Sequence record: NC_070871.1
Direction: 5' to 3' (one strand)
Origin: Escherichia phage PGN829.1
Length of the DNA stretch: 64,000 nucleotides
Shown here piece after piece: positions 9,087 to 24,071 of this stretch; the stretch's first letter is position 1, and each line of letters opens with the position of its first letter. A model generated the notes under the pieces. That model was not told the DNA's origin. It ran no database searches and worked only from the letters and a program-made list of their open reading frames with translations. The position numbers were made by a program, and so were the translations under genes.

Positions 9087-9560
9087 TTAATCCTTACCAT
9101 GATTAGAGTGGAAACCATATTCATTGTTAGCTAACTCTCTAGCTTCTACAGCTTCTTCGAAAGTGTTGAATCTACCTAAATGCTTTAGCTTACCATTAAT
9201 CTTTATACGAACTCTCCATTTACCAGCTTCATATCTTACTCCCGTTGCACCTGACGTATTATTAGAAGCTCTACTTCTATTACGATTGTTATCTTGGGAA
9301 GATACTGCCCTTAGGTTTTCTAAACGGTCATCTGTTCGTATGTGATTGATATGGTCAACCATATAACCGTCAGGCAATTTACCGTTGTGCATTTCCCAGA
9401 TTATAGTAGCTGCCTTAAGATGTCGGTATTTTACTTGGACATATACATATCCACTGTACGTGTCGAAACTTCCAGCAATATCCCCACTTTTAGCTCTGCC
9501 ACTACTAACCTTCCAGTAGAGTTTGCCTTCACGGTAGGAGAAGAGTTCATGCCAGTCCAT
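9087..9560 (-). CDS. HNH homing endonuclease with AP2-like DNA-binding domain
   Basis: HNH core GYMVDHINHIRTDDRLENLR plus AP2-like GVRYEAGKWRVRIKINGKLKHLGRFNTFEEA. Confidence 0.7.
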   Translation of the reverse strand: MDWHELFSYREGKLYWKVSSGRAKSGDIAGSFDTYSGYVYVQVKYRHLKAATIIWEMHNGKLPDGYMVDHINHIRTDDRLENLRAVSSQDNNRNRSRASNNTSGATGVRYEAGKWRVRIKINGKLKHLGRFNTFEEAVEARELANNEYGFHSNHGKD

Positions 9561-10816: not shown

Positions 10817-11035
10817 TTAAGGCTCAAAGCCAGGTTGTAATTGATAAGGTAATTCAACAACTTTCCAGTATCTATCGTGATATTCTGGAGTGGATTCGTT
10901 GATAGCATCTGCAACCTTTTGTGCAGCTTCTTCACTGTGAAAGTAAGGGAGATTCTCTACGAATTTCTCGTCTGGATAATCCCCATCAAAGTTGTCTGTT
11001 TGTACGATTTTAAACTGAGGCATATCTATCTCCAA
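10817..11035 (-). CDS. acidic small protein (hypothetical)
   Basis: 72 aa, D/E-rich. Confidence 0.4.
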   Translation of the reverse strand: MEIDMPQFKIVQTDNFDGDYPDEKFVENLPYFHSEEAAQKVADAINESTPEYHDRYWKVVELPYQLQPGFEP

Positions 11036-11634: not shown

Positions 11635-11973
11635 CTACTTATAAGCAGTTAAATAGGAGGGAGCTTTGTTTATGAAACGTATAGTCCTGAATGAGTTACC
11701 TTCCCTCACCACACTGGCTCTTATTTTTACGGGTAAGAAGATGTGGAAGTAGTCTCCTTCCGGAGCAAGGTAACAATCATGTTCGTTGAGGATAACTATC
11801 TCAGCATTACTGTTATTAAGCAGTTTATGCCCTTGGGCAAAGTTTGCTAACTCTCCAGGTTCCATTATTAGAGTAGGATTACCATAGGGCATAACGTGGA
11901 TGATTGCTTTCTCTGGTTCAGAGGAATAGTGCAGTAAGTCTGTACCATTCATGCCTAAGAGCTTAACGTTCAT
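11635..11973 (-). CDS. small-protein paralog family member (degenerate)
   Basis: Shares the block hhhxPxxE..x.G.hhL......hxhLxE with five neighbours. Confidence 0.4.
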   Translation of the reverse strand: MNVKLLGMNGTDLLHYSSEPEKAIIHVMPYGNPTLIMEPGELANFAQGHKLLNNSNAEIVILNEHDCYLAPEGDYFHIFLPVKIRASVVREGNSFRTIRFINKAPSYLTAYK

Positions 11974-16500: not shown

Positions 16501-17211
16501 ATGCAGAAATTATCGGAAGTATACCGTGGCTTGGCACTGAGTACCTTGAAGGGTACTGGTGCAATCACGGATGACAGATTAGATATTGAACCAGATAGTA
16601 AGCCAGAGATATTGGCTGCTATTAATGAGGGGCTGGTACGTCTGCATAGTCGTTTCCCCCTTAGAACTAATAGCTGCATTGTGGAGATGAAGGAAGGTCG
16701 TACTGATTACCCTCTTCAATCCAAATATGCTTACTCCAGATTTACTAAGCCTACTCTTGAGATCCAATACCCATACATCATGGATGGGTTCATGAAACCT
16801 TTCCAGGATGATGTTATTAAAATCCTAAATGTGTTTGATAACTCGGGTAATCGCCGTAGACTTAACGACGACTCAGACCCTCATGCAATCTTCACTCCTC
16901 GGCCTGATACTATTCAGTGTATGCGACCTCGACACTTCGAGGCACTTAACGTAACTTATCAAGCTAAGCACCCAGTACTTACGGGTGACGAAGAACAGGA
17001 AGTTGACTTAGCAGATACACTAATGACGGCACTTCATAACTGGGTTGGTTATCGTTACCACACTGGTTTGAATACTCCGGAAGCTAATGCTAAGGCAGCA
17101 GAGTATCTGCAAACATATGAAAGCATCTGTGGTGAGGTTGTTGATTATGACCTAGCTAATGGAAGTATTTCAATTACCGAAACTAAATTTGAACAACGAG
17201 GATGGCGATGA
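16501..17211 (+). CDS. virion-associated protein (hypothetical)
   Basis: Late-operon position between terminase and tailspike. Confidence 0.35.
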   Translation: MQKLSEVYRGLALSTLKGTGAITDDRLDIEPDSKPEILAAINEGLVRLHSRFPLRTNSCIVEMKEGRTDYPLQSKYAYSRFTKPTLEIQYPYIMDGFMKPFQDDVIKILNVFDNSGNRRRLNDDSDPHAIFTPRPDTIQCMRPRHFEALNVTYQAKHPVLTGDEEQEVDLADTLMTALHNWVGYRYHTGLNTPEANAKAAEYLQTYESICGEVVDYDLANGSISITETKFEQRGWR

Positions 17212-20200
17212 ACGCACACAACCCCTTTGATGCAAAACAGGATTGGACCAATCCATACTGTCAAAACAGTTCCAATGACCCAATGGTAGATGCACTACTC
17301 GGTAATGCTTACCATGTGGTTCGTACTGTGTACTGCAACCTGGGTAATCTTAAACTTCTGTATGATTTCCTGAACCAATATGGGATGGTCATCGGCGTAA
17401 ACTCTGAAGAGGAGTTGAAGGCATTATCCACGCAAGTTAAATACTCTCGTATCTATGGTTTCTCTCGTGCAGGTGACCGGCAGGTAACTGACTACTTGTA
17501 CGTAGAGGGTGACCGTACAGGTATTCTACCCAACGATGTTGATGCAACTGGTTCATGGATTACTGTTGCTACTTCTGGTTCCTCTAGTGGTGGTACTTCC
17601 TCTGGAGAAGGTGCTTATATTCCTTGGGTATACAGCAATGGTTCTGCTACTGGTGGGGAAACCACAATCAATGTACCGGATGGTACGGTGGGTGTACCAT
17701 TTATCATTATTAATGGTGATATGCAGTATGTAGGACGTGGTTTTGAGTTTGATGTAGACAGTTTGTCAGTAACTCTGGCTCAGCCTCTAGAAGAAGGTGA
17801 TGAAGTGGTATTCCTTCTGACTGGAGTTCCTGCTGTACCAGATAATCCTAACATTAATGACTGGATTCAGATTAATTGGTTGTACAACAATGGTGCTGCT
17901 GTAGGTGGTGAGCAGGCTATTACTATTCCTTATACCTTCCAGTCTATTCCGGCTGTGTATAAGAACGGTCTTCGTTTGTATAAAGGATTAACTACTGAGT
18001 CTTATACTGCTGACCCGGATAACCAACGTATTTTTCTTACCGAACCACTGACAACCAATGATCGCTTGATAGTACAGATTGGTGGTGAAGCACGAGTATT
18101 AGAAGCAACGGATCGTACCATACAGGAAGTGGCTCGTGCGGCTAATGTAAAAGATTCTGAAGTTATTCTCAGTACTGATACAGTACATTCCTTGAATAAC
18201 AAAAAAGTCATTTATAATCTTGATAATCAGCAGATTTACGTTATTCCAGAATTACCAACTAATGTATATATATCCAGCGTAGCTGGTAATATACTTACAT
18301 ATATTCCGGGTAACATTCAGGTTAAGTTACTAACCAAAAAAGAAACTGACCAAATTACCCTATGGCGGGATGCCGGGGATGTGCGGGGATGGGGCGCTAA
18401 GGGTGACGGAGTAACAGACAGCACTGCTGCATTCTTGAGCGCGTTAGCAAATCACAACAGAGCTTATGTCCCGGATGGTACTTTTTTAGTGGATACGACT
18501 GCTATTGATATCAATCTGGTTCATGGCGAAGGCTATATTCTGACAAATGCTGGCATTCGAATTTCGGTTCAACAATTTCGTCATCAGATGAAAATGGTAC
18601 AGGCCAAGCTGATGGTGCCAAATTTCGGCTTTGACAACGGCACTACAGATACATCAATTTACCCTGGTGCAAGGAACGCTCTACAAGGAATAGCCGTCGT
18701 CGAAGTAAATGGGGTCACAAAACTCTTTATGTCGCAGCGTGTTGCTGGCGGTTCATGGACAGCAACCACACGTTGCAGAATTGTTGAGTGCGAACTGGTT
18801 GTCGATGGCTCTACAGTTCCACTTGTGACGTACTCAGGATTGCTTAACATTGGGCATGGTATTGATCTAACGGCTCGCATCGAGAATGGCGAAGTTTACC
18901 TTTATTCCTCACAGTCTGTTGATCCGGCCTATCCTGACGATAAGGCGGGTAAGGGTTACAGTCGCATTCACTGGCGTGGTTCACTGACCAGTCAGGCGGA
19001 TGTTGAATCATTCGCACTGTGGGGGCAGGTAGGTAGCGGGCATCGTTTTGAGAAATACAACCGCGCCTGCGTTAAAATTTCTGACGATGGGAAATTTCTC
19101 ATCATGGCCTCCTCGCCGGTCAATGCAGGGGCCAAGCGTCAGATCTTCGTCTACGACTTTAAGGAAGTACAGAACGCTTCGGACAAATTGTCTGTGGGAC
19201 CTAAATACATTACCGAGTACTCGGTACCGAGTGAGCAAAACTCCAACGTTCTGCAGGGCATCATGTCGGATGGGCGCACATTGACCATCAACATGGGTGG
19301 AACCGTGACCTTGAGTCCAAACTACATCATAGATGTAGGTTTCGACGGAACCACAGAAGTTCGCCAGGAGTACGAGGGTGCGCTAGACCAGTATGGGCTT
19401 TCTGGAATACTCAATAACCCAACTCAGGGCCATCCATGGCGTTTTGAACCAGAGGGAATCTGCTCATATAAAGGTGGGCGACTTGTCTCCATTGCAGAGG
19501 GCTGGTATGCAACTGCAAAAATAGTTTCATGGGAAGGGGCTAACTGGGCGTGCATTACGCCGAAAGATACAACTGGTGTCCCACCATCGAACGGTTCGTA
19601 CTGGATAAAGACAACAAAGGCCGCGACTGAGGGTGCCTGGAGTTCAGCCGTCAACTATGCAAACACAGCTGATTTCTCTCATGAAGTGAAGACTATCTAC
19701 TACATTGGGCCATCACTTGGTTTGCCACAGGAAAAGCCGCTTACCAGTGGGATTAATAACAGACCTGACCCGTCGCAGGTTCCAACCGGGCAGGGATCTG
19801 GTGCTACATCTATCGGCTTCCAGTGGCGTAATATACTCACAATCAGAGGATGGGCGGCAGCGATAAACCGGTACTTTGATGCGTTACAATACGACAATTC
19901 ATCGAGGTTAAGAATTTATGATTCCCAGGAAGGAGCTGACAATACCCAGTATGTATCAGTACAGGCCCTCTTTAATAGTACAATCAAGGCATTAATCCTC
20001 AGAGCGGGCGGCGCCAGTGTAACTGATAGTGCAGCCATGCGCTTACACAAGCGAGATGATCCCACGTATCCTGGTTATATCGTAGAGAGCACGCGAGCAA
20101 CTGGTGAGTTTTCCAGGGAAACCAATGATTCTGGGGCGACTAGGTTTGCATCTGCTGCTGGCAGTACGCCAGTAACAGCTTGCCGTCCCGATGATGGGAT

Positions 20201-20381
20201 GATGTATGGATTCGAAAAAAGCAGGAATGTAAATCTCTGGGGGATCTATCGCGGGATAGGTTCCCCAGAAGGGGTGATTACGGCACCTCGTGGCTCTCTA
20301 TATGTGGCAGCAACAGGCGCCCCGGCAACGTTATACGTTAAAGAATCTGGCTCAGGAAATACAGGATGGGTGGCAAAATGA
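17202..20381 (+). CDS. tailspike/appendage protein with C-terminal pectate-lyase-like beta-helix depolymerase domain
   Basis: 1059 aa; WGAKGDGVTDSTAAF motif at about residue 390; Gly/Ser-rich linker; C-terminal two thirds looks higher in GC by eye. Confidence 0.6.
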   Translation: MAMNAHNPFDAKQDWTNPYCQNSSNDPMVDALLGNAYHVVRTVYCNLGNLKLLYDFLNQYGMVIGVNSEEELKALSTQVKYSRIYGFSRAGDRQVTDYLYVEGDRTGILPNDVDATGSWITVATSGSSSGGTSSGEGAYIPWVYSNGSATGGETTINVPDGTVGVPFIIINGDMQYVGRGFEFDVDSLSVTLAQPLEEGDEVVFLLTGVPAVPDNPNINDWIQINWLYNNGAAVGGEQAITIPYTFQSIPAVYKNGLRLYKGLTTESYTADPDNQRIFLTEPLTTNDRLIVQIGGEARVLEATDRTIQEVARAANVKDSEVILSTDTVHSLNNKKVIYNLDNQQIYVIPELPTNVYISSVAGNILTYIPGNIQVKLLTKKETDQITLWRDAGDVRGWGAKGDGVTDSTAAFLSALANHNRAYVPDGTFLVDTTAIDINLVHGEGYILTNAGIRISVQQFRHQMKMVQAKLMVPNFGFDNGTTDTSIYPGARNALQGIAVVEVNGVTKLFMSQRVAGGSWTATTRCRIVECELVVDGSTVPLVTYSGLLNIGHGIDLTARIENGEVYLYSSQSVDPAYPDDKAGKGYSRIHWRGSLTSQADVESFALWGQVGSGHRFEKYNRACVKISDDGKFLIMASSPVNAGAKRQIFVYDFKEVQNASDKLSVGPKYITEYSVPSEQNSNVLQGIMSDGRTLTINMGGTVTLSPNYIIDVGFDGTTEVRQEYEGALDQYGLSGILNNPTQGHPWRFEPEGICSYKGGRLVSIAEGWYATAKIVSWEGANWACITPKDTTGVPPSNGSYWIKTTKAATEGAWSSAVNYANTADFSHEVKTIYYIGPSLGLPQEKPLTSGINNRPDPSQVPTGQGSGATSIGFQWRNILTIRGWAAAINRYFDALQYDNSSRLRIYDSQEGADNTQYVSVQALFNSTIKALILRAGGASVTDSAAMRLHKRDDPTYPGYIVESTRATGEFSRETNDSGATRFASAAGSTPVTACRPDDGMMYGFEKSRNVNLWGIYRGIGSPEGVITAPRGSLYVAATGAPATLYVKESGSGNTGWVAK

Positions 20382-20587
20382 AAATGATGAAAGTTATTCG
20401 TGATGAAACCGGCGCAGTAATAAACATCGGCGAATGGGATTACGTTTATGCAGAATCTGAGCCGGGTAAGGGGATAGTCGCCACCAACCCGCTACCAGAT
20501 GGATCAACGGAAAGCGAAGAAGAGGTGGTCAATGGCTGGGATGGCGGACTTTATGTTAAAGGTGATCCGAGGGCAAATGGGGCTTAA
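20366..20587 (+). CDS. small ORF downstream of tailspike (possible fiber chaperone)
   Basis: 73 aa, overlaps tailspike stop, same GC-rich composition as the tailspike C-terminus. Confidence 0.3.
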   Translation: MGGKMKMMKVIRDETGAVINIGEWDYVYAESEPGKGIVATNPLPDGSTESEEEVVNGWDGGLYVKGDPRANGA

Positions 20588-20726
20588 TAGTTATTTTCTA
20601 TACCCTGAATAGTAGACAGAGTAACTATTATGGTAACGACTATGGCAAGGATGCCAGTAATTATAAACACGAAAATTCCTTAAACCCCTCTTCGGAGGGG
20701 TTTCCCAGAAAAACAAAGAGGTTTAC

Positions 20727-22613
20727 ATGAACGAATTATTCTCACAAGGTGGTAAAGGCTCTACTGGTATTCTTACCAATAAACAAGCCATTGCCCGTAA
20801 GTTTGGTGTTAAGCAGAATGAAGTAGTCTACTTTTCTGTAGGTGTAGACTTGGGGGGTTACAAAGTCATTTATGACAAGACTACTCAGCGTGCTTACTCT
20901 TTGCCCGTACTCCCGGTAGGAACCACTGCTGTAAGCCTGAATGAACAAGCAATCCTGGTTCATTCAGCAGGTACTGTTGATTTGGGGGAACTTGGGAAAA
21001 GCAGGGGGGAGTATACTACCCTACCTGGCACGTTCTCCACCGGTTCCATAGTAAATACTAAGAATGACATACTCGTTTACAATGATACTGGATACACCTA
21101 CCAGGGTGCACTACCCGTTACTGTAGCTCCTGGATCATCCCCTGTTGGGGATGCTAATTGGGTTGCTATATCCGACGCATACCTGAAAGAGGAACTACTT
21201 AATAAGTATATACACTATGTTACCCCGCAAGTATTTGGTGCTATGGGGGATGGTGTTACTGATGATACTGAAGCCATTCAAGCAGCAATGGATTACTGTC
21301 AACTGAATCGAACTAAGTTGGTGATTCCATCCAAGAAGTACATTATTACTAAACCCTTGTTGTATCGCAATTTAGGCTTTTATAACTATGAAATTGAAGG
21401 ACAAGGTGGTAATGCAATTATTGAATTAACTACCTTAGCTAAGACAGGTATAACTGAGCCAGATGCTTACGGGGTGGATGTTAACGTAAATGCTGCTATT
21501 GTTGTATTAACAGATACTAATCAGAGTAAGTATGCTCGTATTTCAGGTATTCGCTTTACAACTACAGTCAATGCTGACTACGGTATCTATTTTAGTATAA
21601 CGGAGAACAGTTACGTATCAGATTGCCTCTTTGAAGGTTATAAGTTTGGTATATTTGATAAAGGTTCATGGATTCAACGTATATCCCGGTGTATTGCTCG
21701 TAACTGTACGGATACCGGGTTCTATATCCAAGACGGTACTAGTACCTACATAAAAGAATGCTATGTTGATTATGCTAATCGTGGTTACTACTTAGCTAGT
21801 GGCTATAGTTCGATTATTGATTGTGCATGCGACCATACTACCCGCTGGAGCTATGTATTTGGCGGTGGTTCCGGTGATAACGCTACTACAGATACCCGAA
21901 GCATTAGTATGCATAATTGTGGTTCTGAAAATACAGGAACGGGTTCTGCTATCTACATAGATGGTAGGGTTGCATTAGGTATTTCTAATTATCATGCGGG
22001 TAATTACCCTCCATACCAAACAGCCAATACCCCCTATCTTGTAGATGTTTCAAGTAAGGGTTCAGATTCTCAAATTACTATGAGTAATGTGCGATGTGTT
22101 AACTTCTCTTACCTTATTAATGATGCCAGCAGCTCTAATAACTATTTTGACCTTACTAACGTTACCTGTCGTAGTACATTAACTGGTAAATACAGTCTGG
22201 CTTCTGGAACCAGGGTACTAGAAAGAACCAAGGAAGGTGGTGTACGAATCATTACTAATACTGATTTAACTGGTATTGGTATTGTTGCTGGGGATATTGT
22301 GGACTCACTCTCCGATAACACCACTTTATCTGGTTTGCGTAATGGGCAATTCATCTATCGTAAGGGTATATCTATCACCCGCTCTACTGGTTCCGCTGGT
22401 AGTACTGAAGTAACACTACCTATTAACTTACTGGATTATCGTGTAGCCGTAACCTTTAATGGGGGTATTGGTGCATTGCAGAGTATTGCCCCTGTATTTA
22501 GCGTTACTAACCAAACCCCTTCTGGGTTTACGGTTAACTGCGCAAGTTCTCGTGGTGACGAAGCGTGGACTACATTAGGTGCAGATATTATTGTATATGG
22601 CTTGAAGCAGTAA
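20727..22613 (+). CDS. second tailspike with pectate-lyase-like beta-helix domain
   Basis: 628 aa; FGAMGDGVTDDTEAIQAAMDYC motif and beta-helix-like repeats (NCTDTGFYIQDG). Confidence 0.6.
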   Translation: MNELFSQGGKGSTGILTNKQAIARKFGVKQNEVVYFSVGVDLGGYKVIYDKTTQRAYSLPVLPVGTTAVSLNEQAILVHSAGTVDLGELGKSRGEYTTLPGTFSTGSIVNTKNDILVYNDTGYTYQGALPVTVAPGSSPVGDANWVAISDAYLKEELLNKYIHYVTPQVFGAMGDGVTDDTEAIQAAMDYCQLNRTKLVIPSKKYIITKPLLYRNLGFYNYEIEGQGGNAIIELTTLAKTGITEPDAYGVDVNVNAAIVVLTDTNQSKYARISGIRFTTTVNADYGIYFSITENSYVSDCLFEGYKFGIFDKGSWIQRISRCIARNCTDTGFYIQDGTSTYIKECYVDYANRGYYLASGYSSIIDCACDHTTRWSYVFGGGSGDNATTDTRSISMHNCGSENTGTGSAIYIDGRVALGISNYHAGNYPPYQTANTPYLVDVSSKGSDSQITMSNVRCVNFSYLINDASSSNNYFDLTNVTCRSTLTGKYSLASGTRVLERTKEGGVRIITNTDLTGIGIVAGDIVDSLSDNTTLSGLRNGQFIYRKGISITRSTGSAGSTEVTLPINLLDYRVAVTFNGGIGALQSIAPVFSVTNQTPSGFTVNCASSRGDEAWTTLGADIIVYGLKQ

Positions 22614-22618
22614 ATTTA

Positions 22619-22650
22619 GGTAGTGGGGTAAATTTAGTACCCCACTACCA
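22619..22650 (+). terminator. strong hairpin after tailspike gene (terminator-like)
   Basis: 12-bp perfect stem ggtagtggggta/taccccactacc, 7-nt loop; weak T tract. Confidence 0.35.
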
Positions 22651-22871
22651 AACCCATTAGTGTTTGCTGATTCCATTGCTCTAACTGTAAAAATGGTTAG
22701 GGTAACTCTCCCCCATAGGGTATTGAATATATCCAATGATGCCCTTTCTACAAAGCACAGGTTTTGCTCGTCTCTTTGTCTGGATGTATTTCAGCATACT
22801 AAGTATTATCTAAGAGTCATCTTATGATACGACCCCATTGGGGTTCCTAACTTCGTAACTACGGTAATAAT

Positions 22872-23201
22872 ATGAATGAATCGGGTGAACTGCTTCTAGT
22901 CAGACTGGAGGAACGATTGAAGACTCTGTTTGAGAACCAGACAAGGGACAGACAGGACCGTGAGAAACTGGAGGAAACTCTGGGAGAACTACGGGATTCA
23001 ATCAATGACATAGGTAATAGACTAAAAAATGTGGAGGATAGCTTAGCTAAGAATGAACCTACTATTGAAGAGTTCATCACTATTAAGCATAAAGTCGTTG
23101 GTGCTGGAATTTTTGGTAAGTGGGTGTGGGCTGGGGCAGGTGCAATTATTGGTGTATTGGCTGCTGCAAGACGGGAGATATTCGCATGGTTCGTAGGCTA
23201 A
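22872..23201 (+). CDS. coiled-coil protein with C-terminal transmembrane helix (lysis-associated?)
   Basis: Charged coiled-coil region then GAGIFGKWVWAGAGAIIGVLAAA. Confidence 0.35.
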   Translation: MNESGELLLVRLEERLKTLFENQTRDRQDREKLEETLGELRDSINDIGNRLKNVEDSLAKNEPTIEEFITIKHKVVGAGIFGKWVWAGAGAIIGVLAAARREIFAWFVG

Positions 23202-23446
23202 AAAGAAAGATTGAGTTAGTACCTAACTGGAAAAGATGCTGGAAGTGGGCATCCGTTCAGATTAGTACATTTGGTTTAATTTTATTCTCTGCTGTAGATA
23301 TCATCCAACCAATGGTGACAGGATTACCTCGTCACATCCTGGAAGATATTCCCCATGGTTCCAATATTGCAATCGCACTGTTTGCCTTAAACATCATAGG
23401 CAGATTAATACGGTTCCGTCCAAAGGAAAATTCTCATGAAAGCTAA
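23186..23446 (+). CDS. putative holin (two transmembrane domains)
   Basis: Start at internal ATG (MVRRLKRK); two hydrophobic helices; immediately upstream of endolysin. Confidence 0.45.
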   Translation: MVRRLKRKIELVPNWKRCWKWASVQISTFGLILFSAVDIIQPMVTGLPRHILEDIPHGSNIAIALFALNIIGRLIRFRPKENSHES

Positions 23447-24071
23447 ACAGAAACTTGCTGCAAAAGGTGGTGCAGTGGGAGGGGTTGTCGCTGCTATCCT
23501 GGGGGCAGTGTTCTATATGGAAGGGGGTTATGTAAACAATCCTCGTGACCCAGGTGGGGAAACTAATCATGGTATTACCCAATCGGTAGCTAAGTCTCAT
23601 AAGGAGGTTCTGGCTACTGAATATGGTTGGGATGGTTCTATGAAAGGTTTATCTAAGGAGATGGCTGCTGAGATATACATTGATGACTACGTACTTAAGC
23701 CTAACTTCGTAGCCTTCGCTGATATATCTCCTGCTGTAACGCATAAGCTGGTAGATGCTGGTGTTAATACTGGTGTAACCCGTCCGGCTAAGTGGTTGCA
23801 GTTATCCCTTAATGAAATGTCCCGTGATGGCAAAGACTACCCTAAAATACAGGTTGATGGTAAAGTCGGTGCAAGTACTGTTAATGCTTATAAAGCATTA
23901 CAGAAAAAACGAGGCAAAGTTGCAGCATGTCAGGTAATGATTAAGCTGCTTGATGCTAAACAACTAAACCACTATACCTCATTAAACATGCCAGACTTTA
24001 CGTATGGTTGGGTAGCTAACCGAATAGGCAATGTGCCACTGGAGGCATGTAATGAAGATGCTAATCTCTAA
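23436..24071 (+). CDS. endolysin, GH108-type N-acetylmuramidase with PG-binding domain and SAR-like N-terminus
   Basis: GGYVNNPRDPGGETNHGITQ (GH108 signature); N-terminal Gly/Ala-rich weakly hydrophobic segment GGAVGGVVAAILGAVF. Confidence 0.75.
   Translation: MKAKQKLAAKGGAVGGVVAAILGAVFYMEGGYVNNPRDPGGETNHGITQSVAKSHKEVLATEYGWDGSMKGLSKEMAAEIYIDDYVLKPNFVAFADISPAVTHKLVDAGVNTGVTRPAKWLQLSLNEMSRDGKDYPKIQVDGKVGASTVNAYKALQKKRGKVAACQVMIKLLDAKQLNHYTSLNMPDFTYGWVANRIGNVPLEACNEDANL

What the first reader, a model, noticed from the sequence alone, without database searches (positions are those of the whole stretch)
20727..22613. Second tailspike with its own pectate-lyase-like domain
The 628-aa protein carries GAMGDGVTDDTEAIQAAMDYC and beta-helix-like repeats, so the phage encodes two different depolymerase-type tailspikes side by side. 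That suggests a branched adsorption apparatus recognising two surface polysaccharides. Hairpins flank it (20682-20703 upstream, 22619-22650 downstream).
Basis: partly seen in the sequence, partly recalled or inferred. Interest (0 to 1): 0.4.

Follow-up and report, generated by a model that had tools for sequence, protein, structure and literature searches.

The report
Second tailspike of a G7C-like phage
This gene encodes the second, side-branch tailspike of a G7C-like (N4-family) E. coli phage, a sugar-cutting beta-helix enzyme on a conserved docking module; this two-spike design is already well described, so the finding is real but ordinary.

Summary
Window 20727-22613 (+) is an intact 628-aa ORF with the GAMGDGVTDDTEAIQAAMDYC motif, and both flanking hairpins are at the stated coordinates.

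The window is a Gamaleyavirus (G7C-like, N4 family; about 92% nt identity to phage U1G). The protein is the counterpart of G7C gp63.1 ("RBP2").
- **Anchor:** aa 1-165 are 59% identical to the gp63.1 anchor. They also match CBA120 TSP1/3/4 and B2 gp48.
- **Tip:** a C-terminal beta-sandwich follows.

The upstream 1059-aa protein is the gp66 counterpart (69% identity over aa 3-389, including the gp10-like docking domains). A branched two-RBP complex is therefore well supported by homology.

Two-tailspike gamaleyaviruses, RBD swapping and the terminator-like hairpins are all published. The glycan specificity could not be assigned. Verdict: new member of a known kind, low interest.

The parts
20727..22613 (+). 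Gene for the 628-aa secondary tailspike (RBP2, counterpart of G7C gp63.1)
   Evidence: ORF and translation; PHROG tail spike/tail fibre families at E down to 3e-82; 95.9% aa identity to the fragmented U1G orthologue.
20727..21206 (+). N-terminal anchor/docking module, aa 1-~160 (CBA120 TSP1 / G7C gp63.1 / B2 gp48 type), ending in a flexible linker at aa 150-162
   Evidence: PDB sequence hits over aa 1-188/1-181/1-157: 4oj5 1e-63, 4qnl 5e-54, 9d84 2e-52, plus 6nw9 and 5w6h. 59% identity to gp63.1 over aa 1-165 and no similarity beyond. pLDDT below 50 at aa 1-16 and 150-162.
21219..22331 (+). Right-handed parallel beta-helix enzymatic/receptor-binding body, aa ~165-535, starting with the GDGVTDD cap motif; invariant acids D263, D369, E401
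22344..22610 (+). C-terminal beta-sandwich domain, aa ~540-628 (distal tip; probably trimer stabilisation or glycan binding)
   Evidence: Seven long strands at aa 541-627, block-mean pLDDT 87-94 over aa 541-628. The function is inferred from typical tailspike architecture.
20682..20703 (+). Stem-loop AAACCCCTC-TTCG-GAGGGGTTT between the RBP1 cassette and RBP2; member of the CCCCNC-TTCG-GNGGGG hairpin family. Terminator-like, and a possible module-boundary recombination site
   Evidence: Fold -14.7 kcal/mol, z -2.1. Same position and same downstream leader in G7C and U1G. G7C annotates the equivalent 16-mers as repeats flanking gene 63.1. The same hairpin follows ECML-4 TSP3. PMC10408124 describes a conserved ~20-nt predicted terminator downstream of RBP genes.
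22619..22650 (+). 12-bp stem-loop 6 nt after the stop codon, with no U-tract; terminator-like or an RNA 3'-end stabiliser
   Evidence: Fold -22.4 kcal/mol, z -4.3, 0 of 200 shuffles. Identical in U1G only. Not called by the intrinsic-terminator scan, which requires a T-run.
17202..20381 (+). Gene for the 1059-aa primary RBP (RBP1, counterpart of G7C gp66). aa 1-~390 are the virion anchor plus T4 gp10-like XD domains (the docking platform for RBP2); aa ~391-1059 are a five-bladed beta-propeller receptor-binding region
20366..20587 (+). 73-aa ORF overlapping the stop of RBP1; a conserved small partner of diverse spike/fibre genes, function unknown (candidate assembly factor)
   Evidence: phrog_33685, E 4e-18. 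tblastn finds it in 17 phage records; wherever the record is annotated a spike/fibre gene lies under or beside the match. It overlaps the spike gene's 3' end in IME11 and KOX1. Conserved motif.
16501..17211 (+). 236-aa virion structural/adaptor protein (G7C gp67 / N4 30-kDa protein counterpart) immediately upstream of RBP1; context only
   Evidence: Pfam SU10_adaptor 27.9 bits vs 27; phrog_2125 virion structural protein 1e-91; synteny with G7C gp67.

Best explanation
The gene encodes RBP2, the side-branch tailspike of a G7C-like (Gamaleyavirus, Schitoviridae) E. coli podophage.

Proposed mechanism:
1. The protein trimerises.
2. Its conserved N-terminal ~160-aa module docks onto the T4-gp10-like XD3 domain in the N-terminal third of the neighbouring 1059-aa gp66-like RBP1. 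RBP1 is itself fixed to the tail through its own N-terminus. This gives a two-branched adsorption organelle.
3. The beta-helix body (aa ~165-535) binds and cleaves a specific surface polysaccharide of the host, most likely an O-antigen, probably as an endoglycosidase. The invariant acids D369 and E401 (and D263) are the candidate catalytic residues.
4. Processive cleavage brings the tail to the outer membrane.

The RBD is a horizontally exchanged cassette. The same body is found on P22-like, Kagunavirus-like and Kuttervirus anchors. The flanking stem-loops mark the gene and module boundaries and probably act as transcript terminators or stabilisers.

Shown here: ORF, domain composition, predicted fold, homology of both anchors to G7C, B2 and CBA120, and modularity. 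Inferred: physical docking, trimer state, substrate class, hydrolase chemistry, catalytic residues and hairpin function.
For: - Taxonomic frame: about 92% nt identity to gamaleyavirus U1G, and synteny terminase - gp67-like - gp66-like - gp63.1-like - gp63 - holin - endolysin - spanin - portal, exactly as in G7C. A 3456-aa ORF fits a virion RNA polymerase.
- RBP2 anchor homology: gp63.1 59% identity over aa 1-165; 4oj5, 4qnl, 9d84, 6nw9 and 5w6h at E 1e-63 to 9e-43.
- RBP1 anchor homology: gp66 69% identity over aa 3-389; B2 gp49 2e-135; CBA120 TSP4 XD3 region and TSP2 XD2-XD3.
- Published precedent: gp66 and gp63.1 form a stable two-branched complex that requires gp66 XD3 (PMC8825819). The B2 gp48/gp49 complex was co-purified and solved (PMC11654681). 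Two RBPs are typical of the genus (PMC10408124; PMC11990801).
- Modularity: RBD at 53-73% identity on unrelated anchors, with N- and C-terminal identities uncoupled. A homologue sits in the ECML-4 TSP3 slot. GC content shifts at the module borders.
- A 94%-identical orthologue sits behind an adaptor-only 374-aa gp66 in a metagenomic gamaleyavirus, which implies it can be the sole enzymatic RBP.
- Alt63 shows that a depolymerase domain can replace the gp63.1 esterase in this slot (PMC10743462).
Against: - No binding, trimer or activity data exist for this protein.
- The models are monomers. Low TM-scores in Foldseek reflect uncertain inter-domain orientation.
- Beyond the cap motif, the catalytic body has no sequence-detectable relative with a solved structure or a known substrate.
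- No receptor or serogroup could be assigned.
- A weak PHROG hit to 'colanic acid degradation' leaves non-O-antigen glycans possible.
- Neither hairpin has a proper U-tract, so function as an intrinsic terminator is uncertain.
Confidence: 0.8

Rival explanations
1. Same architecture, but the substrate is not O-antigen. The spike would be a capsule (K-antigen), colanic-acid or other exopolysaccharide depolymerase, possibly a lyase acting by beta-elimination.
Against: The closest RBD relatives sit on P22-like prophage tailspikes of E. coli and Citrobacter, in the Kuttervirus TSP3 slot, and on ~43-kb contigs of Kagunavirus-like size (a size-based guess). The first two groups are known mainly for O-antigen-specific spikes (PMC10408124, PMC11990801). 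The PHROG and phi92 similarities fall mostly on the anchor and cap regions rather than the catalytic rungs. Beta-helix fold similarity does not discriminate chemistry.
Confidence: 0.15
2. The spike modifies rather than cleaves the glycan (for example epimerase-like or another non-depolymerising activity), in analogy to the G7C gp63.1 deacetylase.
Confidence: 0.04
3. The two RBPs attach independently to the tail (side by side, as in SP6/K1-5-type adaptors) rather than RBP2 branching off RBP1.
For: No interaction was tested here. The BASEL paper compares gamaleyavirus spikes to the SP6 dual-spike system in terms of use.
Against: Both anchor modules are homologous to the proteins for which direct RBP2-on-RBP1 binding has been shown or solved: G7C gp63.1/gp66 XD3 and B2 gp48/gp49. 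An adaptor-only gp66 precedes the orthologue in L005.
Confidence: 0.03

Closest known systems
Escherichia phage G7C gp63.1 (PDB 4QNL), the secondary tailspike of the gp66/gp63.1 branched complex
   Same: Same genus, same gene position (directly after the gp66 cassette, before gp63, holin and endolysin), and the same N-terminal docking module (59% identity over aa 1-165). The same hairpin plus leader AGAAAAACAAAGAGGTTTAyATGAACGAA precedes the gene.
   Different: The G7C body is an SGNH esterase that deacetylates the O22-type O-antigen. Here the body is an unrelated right-handed beta-helix with no similarity beyond aa 165. G7C's two flanking hairpins are identical 16-mers, whereas here the two differ.
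Phage Alt63 gp63.1 variant (G7C-like phage whose esterase is replaced by a depolymerase/lyase domain)
   Same: The same kind of module swap: a classical depolymerase body on the gp63.1 anchor in a G7C-like phage (PMC10743462).
   Different: Sequence relationship to this RBD was not tested, because the Alt63 sequence was not retrieved. Alt63 specificity is for the E. coli 4s O-antigen, whereas this one is unknown.
Escherichia phage U1G gp78-gp80 (NC_070872)
   Same: Orthologue: 95.9% aa identity over the full length, with an identical downstream hairpin.
   Different: In the U1G record the gene is annotated as three fragments (107, 266 and 177 aa), probably because of frameshifts. U1G has a different RBP1 C-terminal region (only 64% of the 7-kb locus aligns).
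Kuttervirus tailspikes: CBA120 TSP1/TSP3/TSP4 (4OJ5, 6NW9, 5W6H) and ECML-4 TSP3
   Same: The N-terminal D1-D2 module is homologous (E 1e-63 to 9e-43). The ECML-4 TSP3-slot protein shares the whole protein at 54.5% identity. Both belong to a branched-complex system built on gp10-like XD domains.
   Different: These are myophages with four TSPs on a baseplate. The CBA120 TSP catalytic domains are not sequence-related to this one.
Shigella phage B2 gp48/gp49 complex (PDB 9D83/9D84)
   Same: The gp49 adaptor corresponds to RBP1 aa 16-376 (2e-135) and the gp48 N-terminus to RBP2 aa 1-157 (2e-52). This is a solved example of the docking inferred here.
   Different: B2 gp49 has no receptor-binding domain of its own. 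The gp48 body has esterase activity and resembles the G7C gp63.1 spike, not a beta-helix.

Membership tests
Gamaleyavirus RBP2 (G7C gp63.1-type secondary tailspike) | N-terminal ~160-aa docking module homologous to gp63.1 / CBA120 TSP1 | tested here: met
   BLASTP 59% identity, E 3e-56 over aa 1-165; phmmer 4qnl 5e-54, 4oj5 1e-63.
Gamaleyavirus RBP2 (G7C gp63.1-type secondary tailspike) | Encoded downstream of a gp66-type RBP1 that carries gp10-like XD2/XD3 domains, in a G7C-like genome | tested here: met
   RBP1 is 69% identical to gp66 over aa 3-389. XD-region hits to 6w4q and 7rfo. Synteny with G7C and ~92% nt identity to U1G.
Gamaleyavirus RBP2 (G7C gp63.1-type secondary tailspike) | Physical binding of RBP2 to the XD3 domain of RBP1; presence in the virion | not testable with these tools
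   Known for G7C (PMC8825819) and B2 (PMC11654681). Inferred here from homology only.
G7C gp63.1 sensu stricto (SGNH esterase spike) | SGNH esterase/deacetylase catalytic domain | tested here: not met
   No similarity to gp63.1 beyond aa 165. The body is a beta-helix.
Pectin-lyase-like right-handed beta-helix tailspike depolymerases (Pfam PF12708/PF13229 clan) | Sequence match above the curated threshold | tested here: met
   PF12708 31.7 bits vs 27; PF13229 29.1 vs 25.9; PF05048 28.4 vs 23.6.
Pectin-lyase-like right-handed beta-helix tailspike depolymerases (Pfam PF12708/PF13229 clan) | Right-handed parallel beta-helix fold | tested here: met
   [not shown]
Pectin-lyase-like right-handed beta-helix tailspike depolymerases (Pfam PF12708/PF13229 clan) | Polysaccharide-cleaving activity with acidic catalytic residues on the helix face | not testable with these tools
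   Invariant D263, D369 and E401 across 47 homologues down to 26% identity are candidates only.
Same beta-helix depolymerase class, applied to the NEIGHBOUR (1059-aa RBP1) | Right-handed beta-helix fold in the receptor-binding region | tested here: not met
   [not shown]
CBA120 TSP3 family | Homologous catalytic domain | tested here: not met
   Sequence match to 6nw9/5w6f is limited to aa 9-161. Only the N-terminal modules and the generic fold are shared.

The most novel reading that the evidence does not exclude
The beta-helix body has no sequence-detectable relative with a solved structure or a known substrate, and its best structural match is a polysaccharide C5-epimerase. It could therefore be a glycan-modifying rather than glycan-cleaving spike, continuing the precedent of the G7C deacetylase in this same slot. 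More modestly, it could found a new O-antigen glycosidase family (candidate catalytic pair D369/E401) with an unassigned serogroup specificity that is shared across at least four phage lineages.
Probability: 0.05. Interest if true: 0.55.

Novelty: new member of a known kind. Interest (0 to 1): 0.15.

Why it matters
As it stands, this is a textbook instance of modular receptor-binding-protein exchange in G7C-like phages. It is useful mainly for annotation and for host-range prediction or engineering. The RBD cassette is shared with P22-like prophages, a kuttervirus and ~43-kb phage contigs, and it could be assigned to a serogroup once one member is tested.

It also corrects the closest public record, U1G, where the gene is split into three CDS. 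The only mildly unexpected points are side observations:
- The partner spike is predicted as a phi11-type beta-propeller RBP rather than a beta-helix.
- It is followed by a small conserved ORF that travels with spike genes in many unrelated phages.

Tried and rejected
1. Pfam names (SU10_portal, SU10_adaptor) first suggested a kuravirus. I rejected this once BLAST showed ~92% identity to gamaleyaviruses and the 3456-aa vRNAP-size ORF appeared.
2. Serogroup assignment failed by three routes. The DNA search of the RBD against 5,426 complete E. coli genomes found nothing. The Ackermannviridae subtype paper assigns no receptor to the ECML-4 TSP3 subtype. The E. coli RBP-serogroup paper does not mention U1G or ECML-4 in its main text.
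3. I looked for the downstream hairpin in other phages. With flanks it matches only U1G. It is therefore not the widely conserved 'motif three'; the upstream hairpin is the one that belongs to that family.
4. The exact protein is not on record in the assembly collection.
5. A profile search of PDB sequences for catalytic-domain relatives found only anchor and cap-motif matches, so catalytic residues could not be transferred from a solved homologue.
7. A literature check for a described small chaperone downstream of Webervirus/Klebsiella spikes found only intramolecular (S74) chaperones.

Full report
**1. Observation**

The window contains an ATG-initiated ORF at 20727-22613 (+) of 628 aa. Its translation carries GAMGDGVTDDTEAIQAAMDYC at aa 171-191. 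An AAGAGG Shine-Dalgarno sequence lies 5 nt upstream of the ATG.

- Upstream: AAACCCCTC-TTCG-GAGGGGTTT at 20682-20703, -14.7 kcal/mol, z -2.1.
- Downstream: GGTAGTGGGGTA-AATTTAG-TACCCCACTACC at 22619-22649, -22.4 kcal/mol, z -4.3, with none of 200 shuffles folding as well.

**2. What phage this is**

The Pfam names of the neighbours (SU10_portal, SU10_adaptor) briefly suggested a kuravirus. Megablast of 16501-23500 instead hits gamaleyaviruses, the G7C-like genus of the N4 family (Schitoviridae, Enquatrovirinae). These include U1G, Bp4, ECBP1, St11Ph5 and pSb-1 at 90-93% identity over the conserved parts. The window also has a 3456-aa ORF of virion-RNA-polymerase size.

The gene order matches G7C gp69 to gp59 exactly: terminase, 236-aa structural protein, 1059-aa protein, 628-aa protein, gp63-like, holin, endolysin, spanin, portal.

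**3. Anatomy of the 628-aa protein**

*(a) Anchor module, aa 1-~160*
- phmmer against PDB sequences matches CBA120 TSP1 (4OJ5, 1e-63), G7C gp63.1 (4QNL, 5e-54), Shigella phage B2 gp48 (9D84, 2e-52), and CBA120 TSP3 and TSP4.
- BLASTP against G7C gp63.1 gives 59% identity over aa 1-165 and nothing beyond.

*(b) Linker, aa 150-162*
- A low-confidence stretch separates the anchor from the body.

*(c) Beta-helix body, aa ~165-535*
- Pfam Pect-lyase_RHGA_epim, Beta_helix and NosD all score above their gathering thresholds.
- An AlphaFold2 model built on a 47-sequence alignment has mean pLDDT 85.7 and a long run of short strands.
- Foldseek agrees.

*(d) C-terminal domain, aa ~540-628*
- A beta-sandwich.

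Beyond the GDGVTDD cap motif, no solved structure shares detectable sequence with the body. D263, D369 and E401 are invariant in all 47 homologues, down to 26% identity. D369 and E401 lie about one rung apart. From memory, that resembles the spacing of catalytic acids in the Sf6, P22 and HK620 spikes. This is inference only.

**4. The partner and the branched complex**

The upstream 1059-aa protein (17202-20381) is 69% identical to G7C gp66 over aa 3-389 and unrelated thereafter. Its N-terminal region matches:
- Moo19 gp82 (9D80, 3e-149)
- B2 gp49 (9D83, 2e-135)
- the XD2-XD3 region of CBA120 TSP2
- the XD3 region of TSP4-N

Three published results bear on the complex.
- G7C gp66 and gp63.1 form a stable two-branched complex, and binding requires gp66 XD3 (PMC8825819).
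- The B2 gp48/gp49 complex was co-purified and solved by cryo-EM (PMC11654681).
- Reviews and surveys state that two RBPs are typical of gamaleyaviruses, with 11 RBP1 and 7 RBP2 subtypes among 16 genomes (PMC10408124; PMC11990801).

Both docking partners are conserved here, so RBP2 branching from RBP1 is strongly supported by homology, though not demonstrated.

There is further support. In a metagenomic gamaleyavirus contig, a 94%-identical orthologue follows a gp66-like protein of only 374 aa. That protein is an adaptor with no receptor-binding domain, like B2 gp49.

**5.

The PF12708 hit in the 1059-aa protein is marginal (28.6-28.8 bits against a cutoff of 27) and covers only aa 394-500. 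I modelled aa 381-1059 on 19 homologues. The model has pLDDT 82.3, with values above 90 over most of aa 10-470 of the fragment.

No beta-helix protein appears among the 60 hits listed. Sub-threshold sequence hints agree: Pfam Phage_RBD_prop at E 0.008, and the P68 tail fibre in a profile search.

The phage therefore has two different RBPs, but only the target is a pectate-lyase-type spike. The broader idea of two specificities survives.

**6. Modularity and origin of the RBD**

A search with aa 160-628 found 67 relatives.
- 84-95% identical copies lie on contigs of 8.9-73 kb, three of them of gamaleyavirus size (70-73 kb).
- 53-73% identical copies are joined to unrelated anchors: P22-type head-binding domains in E. 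coli and Citrobacter prophages, ~43-kb contigs of Kagunavirus-like size (a size-based guess), and 155-158-kb kutterviruses.

N- and C-terminal identities are uncoupled: for example 64%/87%, 80%/64%, and unrelated/73%. In ECML-4 the homologue (54.5% identity) occupies the TSP3 slot.

GC content changes at the module borders. RBD1 is at 0.47-0.51 and RBD2 at 0.37-0.41, against a backbone of about 0.42. U1G shares RBP2 but not the RBP1 C-terminal region, so the two cassettes move independently.

**7. Hairpins**

The upstream hairpin is positionally conserved. G7C has CCCCGC-TTCG-GCGGGG and U1G has a variant stem-loop, each followed by the invariant leader AGAAAAACAAAGAGGTTTAyATGAACGAA. Relative to G7C, one stem pair is changed on both sides.

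G7C annotates this 16-mer as a repeat on both sides of gene 63.1. ECML-4 has CCCCGC-TTCG-GTGGGG after its TSP3. This fits the conserved ~20-nt predicted terminator ('motif three') that PMC10408124 proposes as a recombination hotspot flanking RBDs.

The window's downstream hairpin has a different sequence, shared only with U1G. Neither hairpin has a proper U-tract and neither was called by the terminator scan. Their roles as terminators, RNA 3'-end stabilisers or recombination sites are inferred.

**8. Substrate**

I could not assign a glycan.
- There is no DNA-level match in complete E. coli genomes.
- No receptor is published for the ECML-4 TSP3 subtype.

**9. Verdict**

This is a real, intact gene for the gp63.1-position tailspike of a G7C-like phage, with a beta-helix depolymerase-type body on the conserved docking module. 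The architecture, the RBD swapping (including a depolymerase replacing the esterase in Alt63; PMC10743462) and the flanking terminator-like motifs are all published.

It is a new member of a known kind. Interest is low (0.15). Remaining value lies in assigning the receptor and in the side observations listed separately.

Noticed in passing
[not shown]
   Followed up: partly
window 20366-20587 (+), with the last ~45 aa of the 1059-aa protein (about 20241-20378): A 73-aa ORF overlaps the stop of the first spike gene. It recurs at 41-57% identity, with the motif VIRDxxGxVINIGxWD...NP(L/M)P(D/E)G...DGG, in 17 unrelated phage records: Klebsiella 157-kb myophages, Webervirus KOX1, 39-41-kb phages, and the E. 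coli gamaleyaviruses IME11 and EK8. Wherever the record is annotated, a spike or fibre gene lies under or beside the match, and the ORF overlaps that gene's 3' end in IME11 and KOX1. The spike's last ~45 aa co-occur with it in at least IME11 and pKP-BM327-1.1. Most homologues of this RBD instead end in a Peptidase_S74 intramolecular chaperone. That suggests the small ORF may be a trans-acting assembly factor. No description was found in the papers checked.
   Followed up: partly
L001 (U1G, NC_070872) 6001-7885: The closest public relative annotates the orthologue of the 628-aa spike as three separate CDS (gp80, gp79, gp78: 'tail spike', 'tail fiber', 'hypothetical'), although tblastn covers 100% at 95.9% identity in three pieces. 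These are probably frameshift errors or pseudogenisation in that record.
   Followed up: partly
L005 4822-7887 (ENA ERZ17808143 NODE_56, 70.2 kb): A metagenomic gamaleyavirus carries a 94%-identical orthologue of the target directly behind a gp66-like protein of only 374 aa (adaptor-only, like Shigella phage B2 gp49). The number of enzymatic RBPs therefore varies within the genus.
   Followed up: no
window 20682-20703; L004 (G7C) 9219-9234 and 11845-11860; L003 (ECML-4) ~10900-10920: The hairpin family CCCCNC-TTCG-GNGGGG is shared between gamaleyaviruses and a kuttervirus at RBP gene boundaries. In G7C identical copies flank gene 63.1 as annotated repeats. This fits the cross-genus 'motif three' proposed as a recombination hotspot.
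   Followed up: partly
window 22651-22871: A ~220-nt non-coding spacer lies between the downstream hairpin and the gp63-like gene. It contains another small stem-loop (GACCCCATTGGGGTT, about 22831-22846; weak, z -1.65). In Bp4 the equivalent space holds a reverse-strand 217-aa ORF.
   Followed up: no
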